From the IMG/VR virus record IMGVR_UViG_2671180921_000030, positions 1-45,744 of that record: a stretch of 45,744 bases of DNA. The stretch is one strand, 5' to 3'. The stretch comes from a virus. Lineage: Duplodnaviria; Heunggongvirae; Uroviricota; Caudoviricetes. This document shows positions 414 through 38,536 of this stretch, in pieces. How positions within the stretch are numbered: position 1 is the first letter of the stretch; each line of letters opens with the position of its first letter. The notes below the pieces were generated by a model, which was not told where the DNA came from, searched no databases, and saw nothing but the letters and a program-made list of their open reading frames with translations. The position numbers and the translations under genes were made by a program.

Positions 414-500
414 AACATTTCAGCTGATGACCACCACGCTTTTTATTGACCATTTTGCACGCAAACTGGAAAACCTGGCGTCGTCATCTATTCTTAAAGG

Positions 501-603
501 GCAAGGCAACTAAGCCTGCATTAATGCCAACTTTTAGCGCATGGCTCTCTCCCAAGAGCCATTTCCCTGGACCGAATACAGGAATCGTATTCGGTCTCTT
601 TTT
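501..603 (+). ncRNA. sdsR: SdsR (RyeB) small RNA
   Basis: gcaaggcaactaagcctgcattaatgcc...ccgaatacaggaatcgtattcggtctcttttt matches my recollection of SdsR, including the terminal hairpin and U tail; lies between yebY and the prophage. Confidence 0.7.
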
Positions 604-604
604 A
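578..604. repeat. attL core (left copy of a 27-bp direct repeat)
   Basis: ACAGGAATCGTATTCGGTCTCTTTTTA here and ACAGGAATCGTGTTCGGTCTCTTTTTA at 44652..44678 (26/27 identical); integrase gene is adjacent. Confidence 0.6.
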
Positions 605-636
605 ATTGTATTTAAAATCAATTAGTTGCAAGCATC

Positions 637-17361: not shown

Positions 17362-17387
17362 CTCAATCTGTTATCCGGGGCTATATT
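17358..17387 (+). promoter_or_regulatory. Candidate late promoter pR'
   Basis: TTGACT, 18 nt, TATATT immediately after the Q-like gene. Confidence 0.45.
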
Positions 17388-17448
17388 CCTCACGCGCCAG
17401 CAAAATCTGGCGTCGGGATTAGCACCCCGGATGTTTACGGAGCGATAT

Positions 17449-17471
17449 GAGACGCGCCCGCGTCTTTTTTT
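17449..17471 (+). terminator. Candidate tR' terminator
   Basis: GC stem agacgcg/cgcgtct followed by T7, about 60-80 nt downstream of the candidate pR'. Confidence 0.5.
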
Positions 17472-17635
17472 CATATCGTTTGCACAGTCACATTCGCGAT
17501 TTATGGCGGGCTGTGTGGGGGAGCCGAAAGGCTCGCCGGTTTCCGTACCCGGTAGTGCTAACCCCGCACAGTTCGCCACCACGATGATTAGCACCTGACG
17601 GTGGCGATAATGTCCAAATGTACGGAGTTATCGTT

Positions 17636-29533: not shown

Positions 29534-29733
29534 CCATTACCGGCTTTACGCCGCTTGCTGACAGCACTGTTGAAGCCCGGGCTCGTCGGGGGCGCAAGGG
29601 GGCAACACTGGAACTTGCCCGGCGTGCTGCTGGCGAATCTCCGGGAACCGATCTGGCGAAACCATTAATTGACACCGGGCAATATCGCAGAGCCATTACC
29701 CATGTTGTGAGGGATAAAGATGCCGACTCTTGA
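29530..29733 (+). CDS. Small head-tail region protein
   Basis: 67-aa ORF; the same frame is open upstream from about 29413. Confidence 0.35.
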   Translation: MTITGFTPLADSTVEARARRGRKGATLELARRAAGESPGTDLAKPLIDTGQYRRAITHVVRDKDADS

Positions 29734-30650: not shown

Positions 30651-31796
30651 ATGGCACAGGGCTTGCCTGTATCAAACGTTGTTAATGTTGATGTGATCAT
30701 GTCGCCGCGTGCAGCATCAGGGCGAAATTTTGGTGCATTACTCATTCTCGGCCCGTCCACAATCATTCCGGTAAGTGAGCGCATTCGCCGTTATTCTGCC
30801 GCGGAAGATATTGGAAAAGATTTTGGCGTGGAATCACCAGAATATAAGGCTGCGCAGGTGTTTTTCTCTCAATCACCGAAACCTCAGGAGGTTTTTGTTG
30901 GTCGTTGGGTGAAAACGAAGGGAGACAGCGAACAGGCCACGCCTGAGACGCTGGAGCAGGCTGTGAATGCCATGCTCGATTATACTTCATGGTATGGGCT
31001 GGGGATTGCAGACGATGCAGATATTCCGGATGCAGACTGGCTGAAAGTGGCTGCGGCGATCGAATCCTCTTCTGTAAGCCGTATTCTGGCGATTACGACA
31101 AGCGATGAGAAATGCCTGCAGACTGCATCCAGCGATGATTTGGCATCAAAACTGAAAAATGCCGGATATTCACGCAGTTTTATTCAGTATTCATCGGGTA
31201 ATAAATACGCTGCGTTATCTGCATTTGGCCGGGCATTCACGGTTAATTTCAATGGCAGTAATACCGCGATTACGCTCAAGTTTAAGCAGGAGCCGGGTGT
31301 CGGGTATGAAACACTGACAGTCAGCCAGGCATCGGCACTTGATGCAAAAAACTGCAATGTGTTCGTGTACTACCAGAATGATACAGCTATCCTCCAGCAG
31401 GGAGTGATGGCTAACGGCGATTTCTTTGATGAACGCCACGGCCTGGACTGGTTACAGAATTATGTGCAGACCAACCTCTATAACCTGCTTTATACCAGCA
31501 CCACGAAGGTTCCCCAGACTGAAGCCGGTATTACCCGACTGTTATCAAATGTTGAAAAATCACTGGATCAGGCCGTTCAGAATGGACTGATTGCTCCGGG
31601 CGTATGGAACGGTGGCGACCTTGGTCAGTTGTCATCAGGTGACACGCTGCCCAAAGGTTATTACGTATACGCCCAGCCGCTGGATGAACAGGCACAATCA
31701 GAACGTGAAGCCCGTAAGGCTCCGGTGATTCAGGCTGCAATAAAACTTGCAGGCGCGGTTCATTACGCTGACGTACAGATTAACGTTGTTCGCTAA
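30651..31796 (+). CDS. Contractile tail sheath protein
   Basis: 381-aa ORF directly upstream of tube, chaperone and tape measure genes. Confidence 0.7.
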
Positions 31797-31806
31797 GGGG
31801 AAGTGA

Positions 31807-32247
31807 ATGTCTACCTATTCTTTTATGGATGTCACTGCGACGCTGACCGGCCCGACCGGTTCGATTGACCTCGGGTACGGTTCTGCAAGTTCTGAAGAGG
31901 GGATTGTGGTTGCGATGGGCGGTCCTAAAAACACCATGACCATCGGTGCTGATGGCGAAGTGATGCACAGTCTCCATGCAGATAAAAGCGGGACGATTAC
32001 CGTTAACCTTCTGAAGACATCACCGACAAATAAAAAATTGTCGCTGGCGTATAACGCACAGAGCCAGTCTTCTGCCACATGGGGGAATAACGTTATCGTG
32101 ATCCGCAACAAGGTCAGCGGCGACATCATCACGGCACGCAGTGTTGCGTTCCAGAAACAACCGGATAACGCCAACGCTAAAACCGGTAATACGATGCCGT
32201 GGGTGTTTGACTGCGGCAAGATTGACCAGGTTCTCGGGGAGTTTTAA
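31807..32247 (+). CDS. Tail tube protein
   Basis: 146-aa ORF between sheath and chaperone. Confidence 0.65.
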   Translation: MSTYSFMDVTATLTGPTGSIDLGYGSASSEEGIVVAMGGPKNTMTIGADGEVMHSLHADKSGTITVNLLKTSPTNKKLSLAYNAQSQSSATWGNNVIVIRNKVSGDIITARSVAFQKQPDNANAKTGNTMPWVFDCGKIDQVLGEF

Positions 32248-32250
32248 TGC

Positions 32251-32703
32251 ATGGAATTCGAAATCAAAGGCGTGAAATATCGCGTGGCAAAACTCAGCGT
32301 TTTTGACCAGCTGAAAGTGACCCGCAAACTTCTGCCGGTACTGGCGGGAATGATGTCAGATTTCGGGAGCATTCGCTCCCGTTTGCCTGCTGACGGCAAA
32401 ATCGACACCGTGAAATTCGAGCAGTTAAAACCGGTGTTTGAAACCATGCTCCCGCGTATCGCTGAGGAACTGTCTTCCCTGACCGAAGATGACACCGATG
32501 CGATTATTCATCCCTGTCTTGCGGTGGTGTCGCGGCGTCATATGGACGGATGGGTTCCGGTATTTACCCAGGGCGAACTGATGTTTGATGATATTGACTT
32601 GCTGGTCATGCTTCATCTGGTGGCGCGGGTGGTCGCCGATTCGCTGGGAAATTTTTTGCCTACACCCCTTACCAGCACGACGCAGAGCCTGCAACAGGGC
32701 TGA
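32251..32703 (+). CDS. Tail assembly chaperone
   Basis: 150-aa acidic ORF between tube and tape measure genes; slippery site near its 3' end. Confidence 0.7.
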   Translation: MEFEIKGVKYRVAKLSVFDQLKVTRKLLPVLAGMMSDFGSIRSRLPADGKIDTVKFEQLKPVFETMLPRIAEELSSLTEDDTDAIIHPCLAVVSRRHMDGWVPVFTQGELMFDDIDLLVMLHLVARVVADSLGNFLPTPLTSTTQSLQQG

Positions 32704-32891
32704 CGTTTAACAGCCTGCCGGACGGGCTGTCCTACCTTCTCAATCCGGTTGACGCCGGGTTAATTCCCTATACAGCACTTAAAGATGGCTCTGTCGATTT
32801 GTATGACATTGCTCTCTTGAATGACCATCTGGCGGTAAAAGCGGATAACCAGCGGCGCATTGAGAAATGGAGAGAGGATAATGAACGCTGA
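32652..32891 (+). other. Candidate -1 frameshift extension of the tail chaperone
   Basis: Slippery T_TTT_TTG at 32652..32658; the -1 frame is open to TGA at 32889..32891 and overlaps the tape measure start. Confidence 0.5.
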
Positions 32892-34833
32892 AACTATTAA
32901 AGATTTCCTCGTCTCGCTTGGCTTCAGTGTGGATGATGCAGGAGCGAAAAAGTTCGGTTCTGTCCTCGCCGGTACAACTGCAAATGTCATCAAAATGGGA
33001 CTGGCCGTTGAAGGAGCTGCGCTGTCCGTGGTGGCCTTCACGGCTAAGATCGCCTCCGGCCTGGATAATCTTTACTGGGCGTCACAGCGCACCGGCGCGA
33101 CAGTCCAGGGAATTCAGTCTATTGGCTATGCGGTTTCGCAGGTTGGCGGCAGCGTGGACGCTGCGCGCGGGTCACTGGAGAGCCTTGCCCGTTTTATCCG
33201 TAATAGCCCCGGGGCTGAGGGATTTCTGAATCGTCTGGGGGTACAGACCCGTGACGCCAGCGGTAACATGCGCGACATGGCCGCTATCTTTACGGGCGTC
33301 GGCCAGAAGCTCAGCAGCATGCCGTATTACCGGGCTAACCAGTATGCGCAGATGCTGGGCATTGACGAAAATACCCTGATGGCTATGCGTCGCGGAGTGG
33401 GGCAGTTCAGCGCTCAGTATTCAGAAATGGTGAAAGCGATCGGATTTAATGCCGATCAGGCTGCCTTCTCGTCAAACCGGTTTATGACCTCGCTGAAATC
33501 GCTCGGTGAAATGGCCGGGATGGCGCGGGACAAAATCGGATCGAATCTTGCGGACGGACTGGCGGGGCAGATTGATAACCTGCGCAAAAAGATAATTGAA
33601 AATTTTCCCAAAATTGAAGTCACCATCACAAAGGTCATAAAGGGGATCTTCTGGCTGGGTGAGATAGTCGGGCGGGTAGCATTTCGGATAGTCGATGGTG
33701 TCGGAGATATCATCGAGTGGTGGGGGAAACTGGATGCCGAAACGAAAACCCTGATAGAGGTTATCGGCGGTCTGGTTGTCGCCATGCGGATACTTAACTC
33801 TACTTTCTGGATGTCACCTATAGGGCTGATTACCGGTCTGATCGTGGCTCTCGGTCTCTTGTGGGAAGACTACAAAACATGGAAAGAAGGCGGTAACAGC
33901 CTTATCGAATGGGAAAAATGGCAACCGGCAATAGATAAAGCGAAGGATGCGATCACCTGGCTTCGTGATCACCTTCTGGAACTAAAAGATGGTGTTGGCG
34001 GCTGGCAAAATACACTGGAAATCCTCGGTACATTCATCGCGGGTGTCTGGGTATCCAAGGTTCTGGGGGCTTTCGGGAAAATATCTGGTTTGCCGGTACC
34101 GCCATGGTTAAAAGGCTGGATGGCTTATGCTGCGTATTTGTACTCCGATCGCGAAAATATTGGTGCCAGTACGAAGTCATCCTGGGATTACACGAAACAA
34201 AATATTGGAGATTCATTGCGCTGGCTTGGCATTGATACCGATTTTGGTCGTAATCCTCATACCGTAAAAGGCGCAAATATTCAGTCAGATATTCCAGGTA
34301 CTGAGCCGGAACAACATGCGCAGTCTACGAAGCGTACTTTAGCCGATCGGAATAACAATCCAGGGAATATTCGCCCGGTAAGCGGTAAAGGGTTCCGGTT
34401 TTTCGAATCAGCGCTTGAGGGCTGGGAGGCGATGAAAAACCAGCTCATGCGTTACTTTACCGGGAAAACAACCGGACGGGCATTACAGACTATTCAGGAT
34501 ATTGTCAGTACCTGGGCCCCGGCAGGTGATAACAACGATCCGAAAAAGTATGCACAGGATGTTGCGAAATGGATGGGAGTATCACCGAATGCAATATTGA
34601 ATCTTACAGATCCCCGGACTATGGGAGCATTGATGCAGTCGATGGCGCGCAAAGAAGGTTATTCAAACTGGAACAGCCCGCTGGCGTATCAGGCCGCCGC
34701 TGGCAGCCTTAACCAGCAGACTGTTATAAATGTTCATGGAGTTAACAACCCTCAGGAGGCGGCTAATCTGATCGCTGACAAGCAGGGGGCTGTAAATGCC
34801 AGGGCGGTACAGCAATTGAAAGGGCCTGCGTGA
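32881..34833 (+). CDS. Tail tape measure protein
   Basis: Long ORF after the chaperone; start trimmed to ATG preceded by GGAGAGAGGA. Confidence 0.8.
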   Translation: MNAETIKDFLVSLGFSVDDAGAKKFGSVLAGTTANVIKMGLAVEGAALSVVAFTAKIASGLDNLYWASQRTGATVQGIQSIGYAVSQVGGSVDAARGSLESLARFIRNSPGAEGFLNRLGVQTRDASGNMRDMAAIFTGVGQKLSSMPYYRANQYAQMLGIDENTLMAMRRGVGQFSAQYSEMVKAIGFNADQAAFSSNRFMTSLKSLGEMAGMARDKIGSNLADGLAGQIDNLRKKIIENFPKIEVTITKVIKGIFWLGEIVGRVAFRIVDGVGDIIEWWGKLDAETKTLIEVIGGLVVAMRILNSTFWMSPIGLITGLIVALGLLWEDYKTWKEGGNSLIEWEKWQPAIDKAKDAITWLRDHLLELKDGVGGWQNTLEILGTFIAGVWVSKVLGAFGKISGLPVPPWLKGWMAYAAYLYSDRENIGASTKSSWDYTKQNIGDSLRWLGIDTDFGRNPHTVKGANIQSDIPGTEPEQHAQSTKRTLADRNNNPGNIRPVSGKGFRFFESALEGWEAMKNQLMRYFTGKTTGRALQTIQDIVSTWAPAGDNNDPKKYAQDVAKWMGVSPNAILNLTDPRTMGALMQSMARKEGYSNWNSPLAYQAAAGSLNQQTVINVHGVNNPQEAANLIADKQGAVNARAVQQLKGPA

Positions 34834-35791: not shown

Positions 35792-36826
35792 ATGTCGAAA
35801 AACTGGATGCGTCACTTTGAATTATTGCTTGTTAATGATAAGGGCGACGGGATAAAAATTTCTGAGCTTAAAGTCACTTTCAATATTCAGAAAATGCCTG
35901 CGACCATATTTAATGGATTCGTTGGGAATTTTAAGGTTTATAACCTGTCCCCTACCACTCAGAACCGGATTATGCAGAAGGAGTTTTCGCGTATACAGGT
36001 TATTGCCGGATACAAGGGGCAACCGGATGCAGCAGGTAATTATCCTGATGAAAACGTTGGTATGATATTCAATGGAGATATCCGTTTTACTGTTACTGGT
36101 AAAGATAATGCCACAGACAGTTGGATCATGTTGCAGTGTATTGACAGCTGGGAAGGCCACCTGAACGCAAGTGTGAAAACCACAGTGGCAGCTGGCTGGA
36201 AGTACAGAGATCTTTTCAGTCTGGGTATGAAATCATTCGAACCATATGGCATCGAATCCGGCGCAGTTCCTGACATGCCGGAAACGGTATTTCCCCGAGG
36301 TCGCGTTGTTTATCAAAACACATCAAGGTTGATGAATCATATCGCAGGGCAGTGTAAAGCTAACTGGTGGTATGAAAATAATCTGGTAAATATTGTTCCT
36401 GAAGATAAATATATTGGTGTTGCTACGGTGTTGAATGCTAACACCGGGCTTATCGGTATGCCACAGCAGACGATGGGAGCTGGCGTAAATGTCAGATGTC
36501 TGATTAATCCAAATATTAAGCTCGGTGGGCTTATTCGTCTGGATCAGGCATCTGTATACCGTGCCTCTTTGAGTAATGACCAGGTAGCGAAATCGCCAGC
36601 ACGACTGGATGAGTCTGAAAGCGACGGTAATCTCTACGTTAACGGTCTGCCAGGCATGTCACAGCCTGCCAGCATTAATACTGACGGTGATTACATTGTG
36701 GGCAGCATTGATTATACTGGCGACACCCGAGGGCAGGCGTGGTATATGGACCTGCTTTGCCTGGCTAAAGGTGGCAAAGAACTATTGGCAAAAGGCACTT
36801 TGGACAAAGTCGGAGATGTAGAGTGA
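35792..36826 (+). CDS. Baseplate hub-like protein
   Basis: 344-aa ORF before the spike/W/J genes. Confidence 0.5.
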   Translation: MSKNWMRHFELLLVNDKGDGIKISELKVTFNIQKMPATIFNGFVGNFKVYNLSPTTQNRIMQKEFSRIQVIAGYKGQPDAAGNYPDENVGMIFNGDIRFTVTGKDNATDSWIMLQCIDSWEGHLNASVKTTVAAGWKYRDLFSLGMKSFEPYGIESGAVPDMPETVFPRGRVVYQNTSRLMNHIAGQCKANWWYENNLVNIVPEDKYIGVATVLNANTGLIGMPQQTMGAGVNVRCLINPNIKLGGLIRLDQASVYRASLSNDQVAKSPARLDESESDGNLYVNGLPGMSQPASINTDGDYIVGSIDYTGDTRGQAWYMDLLCLAKGGKELLAKGTLDKVGDVE

Positions 36827-37158
36827 AAAAAGTATTTTTTTGTTTATTCTTGGCCCTGCCGTTAACAGTTTCGGCGGCAACGCAGTGCGGACCATTCCGC
36901 TTTGATGCTGGTAATGATGGCCTCATGCACATCAATGGTCAAAAGCCAGAAACACAAAAAATGACCTTTTTGAAACAAAAAGACGATTTCGATAATGTCA
37001 TGATGCAATGGATGTTACCTGATCCTAATACTGGACGTTGGTTAGGTATGGACTACATCAAACGAAACAAAAAAGCGATCCTCAACGTTGAAGTTATCCG
37101 CAAAAATATGGACGAGCCTCGGGAGTTCTGGACGTATGATTGCCGGAAGGTGAAGTGA
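36823..37158 (+). CDS. Signal-peptide-bearing small protein inside the baseplate operon
   Basis: GTG start overlapping the upstream stop (GTGA) with GGAG upstream; N-terminus MKKVFFCLFLALPLTVSAATQC. Confidence 0.45.
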   Translation: MKKVFFCLFLALPLTVSAATQCGPFRFDAGNDGLMHINGQKPETQKMTFLKQKDDFDNVMMQWMLPDPNTGRWLGMDYIKRNKKAILNVEVIRKNMDEPREFWTYDCRKVK

Positions 37159-37385
37159 ATTACATTGGCGTCCAGCTTCTGCAGAACAGCATGGATGCGC
37201 CGAAAATCATCGAATCTTTCCCTTGTAAAAAAGTGGCTGGGTGAGAGTAAGAAATTTTAACCAGTTCTCCTTTCTCTCCTTAGAAAAGAGCAAAGCATTA
37301 GTCTAGAATATGGATTAATGAATAAAACAACAGGTTGTTGATGATGCCTTCCAATGATAAATTCCTCCGTTAAGGAGGATGATTA

Positions 37386-38159
37386 ATGTCACTTGCACTG
37401 TATAGCAAACTGAATGAAACGCTTGAGATGCTTACTTCACGTATTGATGAAGGGCAGCAACTGGATGCTTTTACGCTAAAGCGAGTTGTCTCTGAAGCAG
37501 GCAAAATCCCTGATGAGCCAGTTAAGTTGATGGTGTTGGCTCTGGCTTATGGAGCTGCGCATCAACATGTTGAAGCTGTCGGTTTTTTTCAGGAGGCAGT
37601 TGCATACCGTGACGAAACAGTAGCCAGAAATTATCTTTCTTACCTCAGTCATACTGGACAGTATGAATTGTACCGAGAAGAGGCTGTGAGGTTAGCTCGG
37701 GAAATTACCAGCCTTGCTTTGTGCATACGAGCAAGGAATGCAGCCTATGCTGACGGCGATGGTGAACTATCACTCTTTTTTGCTCGAAAAGCTCTGTCTA
37801 TGATCGGAAGTGAGAGCGAGCGAGAAAGCATGGAGTCAGATATCATGGAAAAAAAACGGGCATTAGATACATTCATAAGTGTGACTGATTTAAGCACGAA
37901 TGAGATAAATCTTCTTTCCAGAACAATTACTAATGTCGCTAAGAATTATGGTGTTTTAGCTATTTCTCATGACTATGTCACAAGCCCGGATGGGGATGCT
38001 GGCATAGTTTGTGATGTTTTATGTGAGGATGCCGATATGCTTTCCGATATGGATATTGACGTTGCTACTGAAATTGCAATGAATGAGATCTTCGCTGGAA
38101 AGAATGTGACGGCCTGGTTCCGCGGGCGTAATCGGCAGGAGATTCACTTCACGATATGA
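37386..38159 (+). CDS. Hypothetical protein, first gene of an inserted two-gene module
   Basis: 257-aa ORF after a 227-bp AT-rich leader with TAAGGAGG; ATGA overlap with the next gene. Confidence 0.5.
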   Translation: MSLALYSKLNETLEMLTSRIDEGQQLDAFTLKRVVSEAGKIPDEPVKLMVLALAYGAAHQHVEAVGFFQEAVAYRDETVARNYLSYLSHTGQYELYREEAVRLAREITSLALCIRARNAAYADGDGELSLFFARKALSMIGSESERESMESDIMEKKRALDTFISVTDLSTNEINLLSRTITNVAKNYGVLAISHDYVTSPDGDAGIVCDVLCEDADMLSDMDIDVATEIAMNEIFAGKNVTAWFRGRNRQEIHFTI

Positions 38160-38536
38160 GTATCCAAGGAAAAGAGTTCATTGACGCATCCCGTGCATGT
38201 TTAGACACTGGTATTGAGTCTGGTTTCAGAAGTGCTATTTCACGGGCATACTATGCGTTCTACCATGAAACATGTGGCCTTTTGACGTGTTGCCCGCCGA
38301 CAACACATGATGGAGTTGTTCAATATCTTATTTCGGATGCAAGGCGGAAGGATGAACCTTATGAGTTAATGTCTCTTATCCAGTTGGGGGCAGTTCTCAA
38401 ACAGCAAAAAATGAAGCGTAAGCGCGCGGACTACGATCTAACAGAGACTATTTTGCAAACTGAAGCAAGTTCATCTATTGCAGTGGTGAACAAGATGTTG
38501 GACAAAATAGCAGAAATGAAATCCCAAGTAGCCTAG
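38156..38536 (+). CDS. HEPN-like small protein
   Basis: 126-aa ORF with R-x6-H motif (SRAYYAFYHE); terminator follows. Confidence 0.45.
   Translation: MSIQGKEFIDASRACLDTGIESGFRSAISRAYYAFYHETCGLLTCCPPTTHDGVVQYLISDARRKDEPYELMSLIQLGAVLKQQKMKRKRADYDLTETILQTEASSSIAVVNKMLDKIAEMKSQVA

What the first reader, a model, noticed from the sequence alone, without database searches (positions are those of the whole stretch)
32652..32891. Candidate programmed -1 frameshift in the tail assembly chaperone
The chaperone gene contains T_TTT_TTG at 32652..32658 about 45 nt before its stop. The -1 frame is open from there to a TGA at 32889..32891 that overlaps the tape measure start, giving a fusion product about 78 aa longer. 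This is the conserved chaperone frameshift of tailed phages, here with a U-rich heptamer.
Basis: partly seen in the sequence, partly recalled or inferred. Interest (0 to 1): 0.35.

Follow-up and report, generated by a model that had tools for sequence, protein, structure and literature searches.

The report
Tail chaperone programmed -1 frameshift site
This is almost certainly a real example of the well-known ribosomal "slip" that lets tailed phages make a short and a long tail-assembly chaperone from one gene; it sits in an E. coli prophage family where databases still annotate the second half as a separate gene of unknown function.

Summary
T_TTT_TTG lies at 32652-32658 in the 0 frame of a 150-aa Phage_TAC_15 chaperone gene (32251-32703), between the tail tube and tape measure genes. 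The -1 frame is open from 32598 to TGA 32889-32891, which overlaps the tape measure ATG at 32881. That frame has no usable start codon and encodes Pfam DUF6889 (E=1e-20).

In 84 homologous loci, 82 keep the in-phase T-run and nearly all keep a 75-82 aa extension. Amino-acid conservation switches from the 0 frame to the -1 frame exactly at the heptamer. Distant relatives encode TAC_15 and DUF6889 as one uninterrupted protein that aligns across the predicted junction.

The heptamer is the one proven for phage P2 E/E+E', but the proteins are not detectably homologous. I found no conserved downstream RNA structure. I did find a conserved Shine-Dalgarno-like GGGUGGU (32627-32633) 12-18 nt upstream, and two more overlapping heptamers (G_GGA_AAT, A_AAT_TTT). 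The exact slip register is therefore open.

One correction: the fusion is 213 aa, 63 aa (not 78) longer than the chaperone.

This is a new member of a known kind, of modest interest. The practical value is correcting annotation: RefSeq calls a separate CTG-start "DUF6889 family protein".

The parts
31807..32247 (+). Tail tube gene (146 aa), immediately upstream of the chaperone
   Evidence: Pfam KPP10_Orf10 E=9e-61 and phrog_280. The sheath gene (30651-31796, DUF3383/phrog_205) lies before it.
32251..32703 (+). Tail assembly chaperone, 0-frame product (150 aa); stop TGA at 32701-32703
32627..32634 (+). Conserved Shine-Dalgarno-like GGGTGGTC inside the chaperone ORF; candidate 5' stimulator (inferred)
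   Evidence: Together with the tape measure RBS, this is the strongest conserved anti-SD complementarity in a 580-nt profile of 77 loci (mean -6.3 kcal/mol versus -6.0 for the RBS). Observed mean minimum dG is -7.56, against -4.30 when synonymous codons are resampled. It lies 12, 15 and 18 nt 5' of the three heptamers.
32646..32658 (+).
   Evidence: Codon choice is fixed across 74 unique homologues: GGA 69/74, AAT 69/69, TTT 74/74, TTG 69 plus TTA 1, never CTN. The T-run is present in 82 of 84 loci.
32658..32765 (+). -1 frame linker (first -1 codon GCC 32658-60; 36 codons). Its first 15 codons (32658-32702) overlap the dispensable 0-frame tail (32659-32700) and its stop
   Evidence: Amino-acid pair identity over the first 8 codons after the site is 0.68 in the -1 frame, 0.39 in the 0 frame and 0.36 in the untranslated +1 frame. 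Model pLDDT is about 60 here, consistent with a flexible linker.
32766..32882 (+). DUF6889 domain, the C-terminal ('T-like') domain of the frameshift product
   Evidence: Pfam PF21829 E=1.2e-20 on extension residues 37-75, and phrog_4364 E=2e-23. Helical with pLDDT 91-97.
32889..32891 (+). TGA stop of the -1 frame, overlapping the tape measure start (ATGAACGCTGA)
   Evidence: In most of the ~75 scored loci an ATG lies 8 nt before the -1 stop; the rest show other short offsets (-1, -5, -16, -17).
32869..32878 (+). Ribosome-binding site GGAGAGAGGA of the tape measure gene, embedded in the end of the -1 ORF
   Evidence: Conserved anti-SD complementarity at +214..+219 from the T-run. The rare AGA Arg codon is fixed here in 54/60 sequences.
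32881..34833 (+). Tape measure protein gene (650 aa)
   Evidence: phrog_2276 E=3.5e-250. RefSeq CDS start in E. coli E41 corresponds to 32881.

Best explanation
A fraction of ribosomes translating the tail assembly chaperone mRNA slip back one nucleotide on the U6 run (32652-32657) of the cassette G_GGA_AAU_UUU_UUG. This happens at the end of the last helix of the chaperone domain. Ribosomes that do not slip read 14 more poorly conserved codons and stop at 32701-32703, giving the 150-aa short chaperone. Ribosomes that slip read the -1 frame through a roughly 23-residue flexible linker (residues 137-159) and a small helical DUF6889 domain to TGA 32889-32891, giving a 213-aa long chaperone.

By analogy with lambda gpG/gpGT and P2 gpE/gpE+E', the shared N-domain would coat the tape measure protein. 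The rarer C-terminal domain would recruit the tube protein, so that one mRNA sets a fixed short:long ratio. These roles are inferred, not shown.

The most likely register is T_UUU_UUG (P site UUU, A site UUG), as in P2, giving the junction ...GNFL|AYTP. Slippage one codon earlier on A_AAU_UUU, or two codons earlier on G_GGA_AAU, would give ...GNFF|AYTP and cannot be excluded.

There is no conserved downstream stimulatory RNA structure. A conserved internal Shine-Dalgarno-like GGGUGGU 12-18 nt upstream is the only candidate stimulator, and that too is inferred.
For: Anatomy: the gene order is sheath, tube, TAC_15 chaperone, 177-nt 'gap', tape measure.

The gap is coding in the -1 frame: it matches Pfam DUF6889 at E=1.2e-20 and phrog_4364 at E=1.8e-23. 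No ATG, GTG or TTG precedes the domain.

Conservation of the site: 82 of 84 homologous loci keep an in-phase T6 or T7 run. About 72 keep an intact 75-82 aa extension that ends on the tape measure start. The third base of codon 134 is T whether the residue is N, S, G or D. Phe135 is TTT in 74/74, while other Phe columns are about 50:50 TTT/TTC. Leu136 is TTG or TTA and never CTN.

Position of the shift: in L035, L068, L070 and L074 a -1-frame stop lies directly 5' of the T-run, so the shift cannot occur further upstream.

Selection: upstream of the site, amino-acid pair identity is 0.81 in the 0 frame and 0.52 in the -1 frame, and the -1 frame has stops in 11 of 76 sequences. Downstream it is 0.68 in the -1 frame and 0.39 in the 0 frame, which equals the +1 background of 0.36. 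Arg138 of the -1 frame uses six codons, both CGN and AGR.

Natural fusions: seven distant proteins of 191-210 aa carry TAC_15 plus DUF6889 in one ORF and align colinearly through the junction (for example SLARFLAYEP against SLGNFLAYTP). In L087 a separate short TAC_15 gene precedes such a long gene.

Precedent: P2 E/E+E' shifts -1 at GGT_TTT_TTG, and its -1 stop overlaps the tape measure gene start.

Structure: the model has pLDDT 86.6, and the last N-domain helix (117-136) ends at the slip codon.
Against: There is no protein or ribosome-profiling evidence.

In E. coli reporter assays each of the three heptamers is weak on its own. Without stimulators UUUUUUG gives 0.118%, AAAUUUU 0.070% and GGGAAAU 0.069%, against a background of about 0.055%. 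UUUUUUG reaches only 0.77% even with the IS3 pseudoknot (PMC4066793 Table S3).

I found no downstream structure. Single-sequence folds have z = -0.6 and -0.5, and the consensus of 28 sequences is -1.2 kcal/mol. No Rfam frameshift element matches.

The SD-like element lies 18 nt from T_TTT_TTG, outside the 9-14 nt range quoted for -1 frameshifting.

One locus (L021) has the run broken (AAT ATT TTG) yet keeps an intact extension.

This particular prophage copy carries a 13-nt deletion in its tail-completion gene, so it may no longer make tails.
Confidence: 0.9

Rival explanations
1. The -1 ORF is an independent small gene, as RefSeq annotates it: a 54-aa 'DUF6889 family protein' starting at CTG 32727. 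It would be translated by its own initiation, not by frameshifting.
For: PGAP annotates exactly this CDS in E. coli E41 (100% identical over the region) and in all 12 listed records among the 315 E. coli genomes with a match. A weakly SD-like GACGGG lies just upstream (position +69..+72). Many relatives have an in-frame ATG about 87 nt after the T-run.
Against: The window has no ATG, GTG or TTG in this frame before the domain. The CTG is not conserved; most relatives have GAA (Glu, 'PDGED') there. The position of the first ATG varies (51, 63, 87, 120, 165, 183 nt, or none). The 23 codons between the slip site and the CTG are conserved at the amino-acid level in the -1 frame, with synonymous variation. 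The GACGGG abuts the CTG, so there is no normal spacer. Natural fusions join the domain to a TAC_15 domain.
Confidence: 0.04
2. The long form arises by transcriptional slippage. RNA polymerase adds one extra U on the T6 run, and the edited mRNA is then read normally.
For: The site is a homopolymer. One assembled contig (L085, SRR23924998) carries T7, which fuses the frames (junction GNFFAYTP). Four relatives have T7 in place of T6+G. Variants with T5 also exist (P0018, P0066, L080), showing that run length is labile at the DNA or sequencing level.
Against: Productive transcriptional slippage in bacteria is described for runs of about 9 A or T (PMC5009743); here the run is 6. Selection has not lengthened it in about 80 lineages. 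The same TTTTTTG in P2 is annotated in the P2 record, and cited in the literature, as a -1 translational frameshift.
Confidence: 0.05
3. The frameshift is real but occurs in a different register from the one the reader named. It would occur on A_AAU_UUU (32649-32655) or G_GGA_AAU (32646-32652), helped by the upstream SD-like sequence, with the extra Ts serving only as -1-frame Phe codons.
For: In E. coli the best motifs allow cognate A-site re-pairing. AAAUUUU reaches 11.4% with a strong stimulator, against 0.77% for UUUUUUG. GGA, a rare Gly codon, is fixed in 69/74 sequences and AAT in 69/69. The SD-like GGGUGGU is 12 nt from G_GGA_AAU and 15 nt from A_AAU_UUU, nearer the 9-14 nt window than the 18 nt to T_UUU_UUG. 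L021 keeps G_GGA_AAT but has lost the T6 run.
Against: About 14 loci lack G_GGA_AAT and about 8 lack A_AAT, yet all of these keep T_TTT_TTN and an intact extension. P2 has only GGT_TTT_TTG. Leu136 is held to TTR, which register (b) (T_TTT_TTG) needs, although a -1-frame Phe requirement could also explain it. Without stimulators all three motifs are near background.
Confidence: 0.3

Closest known systems
Phage P2 gpE / gpE+E' (FETUD operon; -1 frameshift at TTTTTTG)
   Same: The heptamer T_TTT_TTG is identical and in the same phase. Both are in contractile-tail phages of E. coli and lie between the tube gene and the tape measure gene. In both, the -1 stop overlaps the tape measure start by 8 nt (P2 ATGAGTAA; here ATGAACGCTGA). 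No downstream stimulatory structure is reported for P2 and none was found here.
   Different: No detectable sequence homology: hhalign probability is 0.6%, and the Pfam families here are TAC_15 and DUF6889. The proteins are larger (150/213 aa against 91/142 aa). Here the heptamer sits in a 13-nt triple-heptamer cassette with an SD-like element 18 nt upstream. In P2 an AAGGTGGT lies only 3 nt upstream.
Phage lambda gpG / gpGT (G_GGA_AAG) and the conserved chaperone frameshift of long-tailed phages (Levin 1993; Xu, Hendrix, Duda 2004)
   Different: The heptamer, the protein family and the tail type (myovirus against siphovirus) differ. The functions of the two domains are only inferred here.
Proposed -1 frameshift in tail assembly chaperones of Pakpunavirus/Vandenendeviridae and Andersonviridae (invariant GTTTTT; PMC12846349, 2025)
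   Same: The tail module shares related families (KPP10-type tube, E217-type sheath and hub). Both have a poly-T slip motif at the 3' end of the short chaperone gene. In both, the downstream piece is routinely mis-annotated as a separate hypothetical gene.
   Different: Those are virulent Pseudomonas and enterobacterial phages. This one is a temperate SEN34 (Brunovirus)-like enterobacterial prophage group. The motif here is AAT_TTT_TTG. I did not test direct homology of the chaperones.
dnaX and IS911/IS3 -1 frameshift signals (internal Shine-Dalgarno stimulator 9-14 nt upstream)
   Same: An SD-like sequence conserved beyond the needs of the protein sequence lies upstream of the slippery cassette.
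   Different: The slippery site is not A_AAA_AAG and there is no downstream hairpin or pseudoknot. Spacing is 12-18 nt depending on the register. The stimulatory role is untested.

Membership tests
G/GT-type tail assembly chaperone with programmed -1 frameshift | Gene lies between the major tail (tube) gene and the tape measure gene | tested here: met
   Tube 31807-32247, chaperone 32251-32703, tape measure 32881-34833
G/GT-type tail assembly chaperone with programmed -1 frameshift | Second ORF overlaps the 3' end of the first in the -1 frame and lacks its own start codon | tested here: met
   The -1 frame is open 32598-32891. There is no ATG, GTG or TTG before the DUF6889 domain. The position of the first ATG is not conserved in relatives
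G/GT-type tail assembly chaperone with programmed -1 frameshift | In-phase slippery heptamer X_XXY_YYZ in the overlap, conserved among homologues | tested here: met
   T_TTT_TTN is present in 82 of 84 loci, with codon choice fixed against the usual usage
G/GT-type tail assembly chaperone with programmed -1 frameshift | Both reading frames carry protein-level constraint, switching at the slip site | tested here: met
   Pair identity is 0.81 (0 frame) against 0.52 (-1 frame) upstream, and 0.39 against 0.68 downstream
G/GT-type tail assembly chaperone with programmed -1 frameshift | Chaperone sequence family or fold | tested here: met
G/GT-type tail assembly chaperone with programmed -1 frameshift | Short and long products are both made at a set ratio, both are needed for tail assembly, and both are absent from virions | not testable with these tools
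   Needs proteomics and genetics
P2 gpE / gpE+E' protein family | Sequence homology to P2 E and E' | tested here: not met
   hhalign of a 22-sequence family profile against P2 E+E' gives probability 0.6%, E=0.096, over 16 columns only
P2 gpE / gpE+E' protein family | Slip site TTTTTTG near the end of the short ORF, with the -1 stop overlapping the tape measure start | tested here: met
SD-stimulated bacterial -1 frameshift signals (dnaX, IS911 type) | Internal Shine-Dalgarno-like sequence 9-14 nt 5' of the shift site | tested here: inconclusive
   GGGTGGT at 32627-32633 is conserved and enriched over synonymous resampling. Spacing is 12, 15 and 18 nt to the three heptamers, and the quoted range is 9-14 nt
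SD-stimulated bacterial -1 frameshift signals (dnaX, IS911 type) | Downstream stem-loop or pseudoknot 5-9 nt after the heptamer | tested here: not met
   Fold z-scores are -0.6 and -0.5. The consensus of 28 sequences is -1.2 kcal/mol with 5 pairs, all far downstream. No Rfam match
Transcriptional slippage sites | Homopolymer run of about 9 or more A/T | tested here: not met
   The run is T6 (T7 in 4 relatives). The threshold is from PMC5009743

The most novel reading that the evidence does not exclude
The signal may be more than a bare heptamer. It could be a structure-free, composite frameshift signal made of a 13-nt cassette of three overlapping in-phase heptamers (G_GGA_AAU_UUU_UUG) and a conserved internal Shine-Dalgarno-like GGGUGGU 12-18 nt upstream that pairs with 16S rRNA. 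Ribosomes could then slip in any of three consecutive registers. This might explain how motifs that give only about 0.1% frameshifting singly in reporters could supply enough long chaperone without any downstream RNA structure.
Probability: 0.3. Interest if true: 0.4.

Novelty: new member of a known kind. Interest (0 to 1): 0.25.

Why it matters
The mechanism itself is textbook. The value is mainly corrective.

- The region is present in 315 of 5,426 complete E. coli genomes, and in many Salmonella, Citrobacter, Enterobacter, Klebsiella, Pantoea, Photorhabdus and Serratia prophages.
- The related phage records leave the 177-nt stretch blank. RefSeq calls it a separate CTG-start "DUF6889 family protein".
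- The evidence here assigns Pfam DUF6889 and phrog_4364 a role: they are the C-terminal domain of the long form of the Phage_TAC_15 chaperone.
- The family also gives a clean natural test case. An intrinsically weak heptamer (UUUUUUG) has no downstream structure but does have a conserved upstream SD-like element, which could be used to study 5' stimulation of -1 frameshifting.

Tried and rejected
1. Single-sequence folds are not better than shuffles, and the consensus fold of 28 diverse homologues shows nothing within 100 nt. Rejected.

2. A 55-nt block upstream of the heptamer is nucleotide-invariant in four phages that are otherwise about 75% identical. This looked like a long cis element. 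In 74 diverse homologues most of those synonymous sites vary freely (for example GAT/GAC 40:31, and six Ser codons). Only the GGA AAT TTT TTG cassette and the CGG GTG GT (SD-like) part stay biased. The long-element idea is rejected.

3. Homology to P2 E+E'. Not detected.

4. NCBIfam models for the fused protein. None found.

5. Rfam frameshift elements. None found.

7. Literature on DUF6889, PF21829 or Phage_TAC_15. No papers. The SEN34 description paper does not mention a frameshift, a chaperone or a tape measure.

8. Internal initiation driven by the SD-like sequence. There is no start codon of any kind in the -1 frame between 32634 and the T-run (CGA TTC GCT GGG AAA TTT TTT), and several relatives have -1 stops there. 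Rejected.
Full report
**The observation**

The window reads ...CTG GGA AAT TTT TTG CCT... with TTTTTTG at 32652-32658. In the frame of ORF 32251..32703 (150 aa) the codons are AAT(32650-52) TTT(32653-55) TTG(32656-58), so the phase is T_TTT_TTG as stated.

The 0-frame stop (32701-32703) follows 14 codons later. The -1 frame is open from 32598 to TGA 32889-32891. The tape measure ATG is at 32881-32883, so the -1 stop overlaps it (ATGAACGCTGA).

One number needs correcting. The -1 part after the slip is 77 codons, and the fusion is 136+77 = 213 aa. That is 63 aa longer than the 150-aa product, not 78.

Two further in-phase heptamers overlap the one named: G_GGA_AAT (32646-32652) and A_AAT_TTT (32649-32655).

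On chance, in-phase T_TTT_TTN heptamers are common (11 in about 12,900 codons of the window's ORFs). A 97-codon stop-free -1 stretch is not common: stops occur at 0.08 per codon, P is about 3e-4, and none of 1030 other -1 runs is as long.

**What the genes are**

The neighbourhood is a contractile-tail module:
- sheath: 30651-31796, DUF3383/phrog_205;
- tube: 31807-32247, KPP10_Orf10;
- chaperone: 32251-32703, Pfam Phage_TAC_15 E=7e-31, phrog_1688;
- tape measure: 32881-34833, phrog_2276 E=3.5e-250;
- baseplate proteins: Dit-like, Pam3_gp18 plug, E217_gp41 hub.

Head genes lie upstream, and tail fibre genes and a DNA invertase lie downstream.

The translated -1 stretch is not junk. It matches Pfam DUF6889 (E=1.2e-20, extension residues 37-75) and phrog_4364 (E=1.8e-23). 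The frame has no ATG, GTG or TTG before the domain.

**Where it comes from, and how it is annotated**

The region is 98% identical to Escherichia phages vB_EcoM-606R2 and -689R2, 79% to Yersinia phage YP3 and 74% to Salmonella phage SEN34 (genus Brunovirus). All of these records leave the 177-nt stretch between chaperone and tape measure unannotated.

It occurs in 315 of 5,426 complete E. coli genomes. In E. coli E41, which is 100% identical over the queried 650 bp, RefSeq annotates a separate 54-aa "DUF6889 family protein". That CDS corresponds to window 32727-32891, and 32727-29 is CTG.

**Comparative test**

A scan of one genome per species gave 80 loci with 38-85% identical chaperones. Together with the window and three phages this makes 84 sequences.

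- **T-run.** Eighty-two of 84 have an in-phase T6 or T7 run at the homologous position. The last base varies: G mostly, T in four, and A and C once each.
- **Exceptions.** L021 reads AAT ATT TTG, and L080 is a degraded copy with T5.
- **Extension.** About 72 loci keep an intact 75-82 aa -1 extension. In most, its stop lies 8 nt after the tape measure ATG.
- **Codon choice is fixed against normal usage.**
  - Phe135 is TTT in 74/74, while other Phe columns are about 50:50.
  - Asn134 is AAT in 69/69. Where the residue is S, G or D the codon still ends in T.
  - Leu136 is TTG (69) or TTA (1) and never CTN, although CTG dominates other Leu columns.
  - Gly133 is the rare GGA in 69/74.
- **Ascertainment.** Part of this is by construction, because I required the T-run to build that table. 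Searches show that only two loci were lost for that reason.
- **Upstream limit.** In L035, L068, L070 and L074 a -1-frame stop (TAG, TAA or TGA) lies immediately 5' of the run, so the shift cannot occur further upstream.

The strongest single result is the switch in protein-level constraint. In the 14 codons before the run, pair identity is 0.81 in the 0 frame and 0.52 in the -1 frame, and the -1 frame has stops in 11 of 76 sequences. In the 8 codons after it, identity is 0.68 in the -1 frame and 0.39 in the 0 frame. The 0-frame value is the same as the untranslated +1 frame (0.36).

So the 0-frame tail is essentially unconstrained, and the -1 frame is under purifying selection from the first codon after the heptamer. 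Arg138 of the -1 frame, for example, is 97% conserved and is encoded by six different codons.

This also disposes of the RefSeq model. Conservation begins 23 codons before its CTG start, and that CTG is GAA (Glu) in most relatives.

**Natural fusions**

A search of 1.84 billion representative proteins with the fused sequence found seven distant proteins (28-33% identical over the alignment; 34-41% over the matched stretches) of 191-210 aa. Each carries Phage_TAC_15 and DUF6889 in one uninterrupted ORF.

They align colinearly with the predicted frameshift product through the junction. For example...DSLARFLAYEP... aligns with the predicted ...DSLGNFLAYTP....

In one such contig (L087) a separate 167-aa TAC_15 gene sits directly before the 209-aa long gene. 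There the short and long chaperones are made from two genes instead of by recoding.

One E. coli-type contig (L085) has T7, which fuses the frames (GNFFAYTP). Whether that is a real allele or a homopolymer error cannot be told.

**Structure**

An AlphaFold model of the 213-aa fusion has mean pLDDT 86.6 and pTM 0.78.
- The N-domain is confident, and its last helix (117-136) ends exactly at the slip codon.
- A low-confidence linker spans 137-159.
- A confident small helical domain spans 160-211 (DUF6889).

**Mechanism**

TTTTTTG is the site of the P2 E/E+E' frameshift (PMC3091744). The P2 record annotates it at GGT_TTT_TTG, and there too the -1 stop overlaps the tape measure gene start. P2 and its relatives are reported to lack a downstream structure.

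Here too there is none. Folds of the window are no better than shuffles (z = -0.6 and -0.5). A consensus fold of 28 diverse homologues gives -1.2 kcal/mol. Rfam has no match.

Reporter data for E. coli show that all three heptamers are weak alone. Values below are with no stimulator, with the IS911 stimulators, and with the IS3 pseudoknot (PMC4066793 Table S3):

| Heptamer | No stimulator | IS911 | IS3 pseudoknot |
|---|---|---|---|
| UUUUUUG | 0.118% | 0.247% | 0.765% |
| AAAUUUU | 0.070% | 0.355% | 11.4% |
| GGGAAAU | 0.069% | 0.112% | 1.05% |

Something in the context may therefore matter.

A profile of pairing energy to the 16S anti-SD over 580 nt in 77 loci shows two conserved strong sites of similar strength, plus a weaker third at +69..+72 (mean about -4.9). 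One strong site is the true tape measure RBS, with a mean of -6.0 kcal/mol. The other is GGGTGGT(C/G) at 32627-32634, with a mean of -6.3.

The protein motif (Arg-Val-Val) accounts for only part of this. Resampling synonymous codons gives a mean minimum dG of -4.30 against -7.56 observed, and 42% against 99% of sequences at or below -5 kcal/mol. Because the sequences are related, the nominal significance is inflated.

The element lies 12, 15 and 18 nt 5' of G_GGA_AAT, A_AAT_TTT and T_TTT_TTG. The range quoted for -1 stimulation is 9-14 nt (PMC5009743). I regard it as a candidate 5' stimulator, not an established one.

**Which register**

The comparative data pin the slip to the T-run, because they require that run. 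They cannot separate two cases.
- A-site UUG with P-site UUU (T_UUU_UUG) gives junction GNFL|A.
- A-site UUU with P-site AAU (A_AAU_UUU) gives junction GNFF|A.

Loci that lack A_AAT or G_GGA still keep T_TTT_TTN, and P2 has only that heptamer. The E. coli rule that cognate A-site re-pairing is best, and the SD spacing, favour the upstream registers. Mass spectrometry of one residue would decide it.

**Rivals**

- **Independent initiation.** Contradicted by the absence of a conserved start, by conservation upstream of the annotated start, and by the natural fusions.
- **Transcriptional slippage.** Unlikely for a 6-nt run, since runs of about 9 are described. Only RNA sequencing can exclude it.
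- **Chance ORF.** Excluded by the Pfam and PHROG matches and by conservation.

**Comparison with what is known, and novelty**

This works like lambda G/GT and P2 E/E+E'. It is not a detectable sequence relative of P2 E+E' (hhalign probability 0.6%).

A December 2025 paper proposed the same recoding, with an invariant GTTTTT, for chaperones of Pakpunavirus/Vandenendeviridae and Andersonviridae. Their tail modules use related families, and the downstream piece is likewise mis-annotated there (PMC12846349).

I found no paper mentioning DUF6889 or Phage_TAC_15. The SEN34 description does not mention a frameshift.

The finding is therefore a new member of a known kind. The practical consequence is that DUF6889 and phrog_4364 should be read as the C-terminal domain of the long Phage_TAC_15 chaperone. 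It is of modest interest, slightly raised by the possible SD-like stimulator and the triple-heptamer cassette.

**Caveat for this copy**

The prophage in this window has a 13-nt deletion in its tail-completion gene relative to E41 and vB_EcoM-689R2. Experiments should use an intact relative.

Noticed in passing
window 29192-29733 (deletion junction after about 29434): The tail-completion (Neck1-like) gene is split across two frames by a 13-nt deletion (CCGCAGCTCAAAA/G) relative to E. coli E41 and phage vB_EcoM-689R2, where it is an intact 555-nt gene. This prophage copy may be tail-defective, or the assembly has an error.
   Followed up: partly
L085:1899-1905 (Logan SRR23924998): One contig, 97% identical at the protein level, has T7 in place of T6. 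The chaperone and DUF6889 are then one 213-aa ORF (P0001, junction GNFFAYTP). This is either a real long-only allele or a homopolymer sequencing error.
   Followed up: partly
L087:1989-3130 (GCA_011800885.1, JAAIGG010337121.1): In a distant relative the short chaperone (167 aa, TAC_15) and the long form (209 aa, TAC_15-like N-domain plus DUF6889) are two adjacent genes. This is a two-gene alternative to frameshifting.
   Followed up: partly
L021:1893-1905 (Salmonella enterica s1, CP191473.1): The T-run is broken (GGA AAT ATT TTG), but G_GGA_AAT and a full 77-aa conserved -1 extension remain. This is either a recent inactivating change or use of the upstream heptamer.
   Followed up: no
P0018, P0066; L080:1852-1865: Some database proteins and one degraded locus have T5 in place of T6, so the 0 frame runs into the +1 frame (...GNFCPRSLPARRR...). 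The run length is labile in assemblies.
   Followed up: no
window 36823-38536: Three ORFs of unknown function (phrog_3443, 17809 and 5176) sit between the baseplate hub and wedge genes. The first starts with a signal-peptide-like MKKVFFCLFLALPLTVSAATQCG. They are possibly cargo (moron) genes inside the tail module.
   Followed up: no
window 43744-44307 and 41560-43667: A DNA invertase (phrog_125, E=8e-73) lies next to the tail fibre and fibre-assembly genes, with an oppositely oriented ORF at 43329-43667. This suggests an invertible host-range segment. An inverted-repeat search (minimum 18 nt) found no flanking crossover repeats.
   Followed up: partly
window 463-607, 2169-2347, 17381-17583: Rfam gathering-score matches: SraC/RyeA and SdsR/RyeB sRNAs (chromosomal flank), the RalA antitoxin sRNA, and C4 antisense RNA with its a1b1 targets plus isrK (P1/P7-type immunity region).
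   Followed up: no
L086:1668-1685 (phage P2): In P2 an SD-like AAGGTGGT lies only 3 nt 5' of its TTTTTTG. The chaperone C-terminal peptide (KVVGFL) loosely resembles RVVADSLGNFL here, although profile comparison finds no significant homology.
   Followed up: partly
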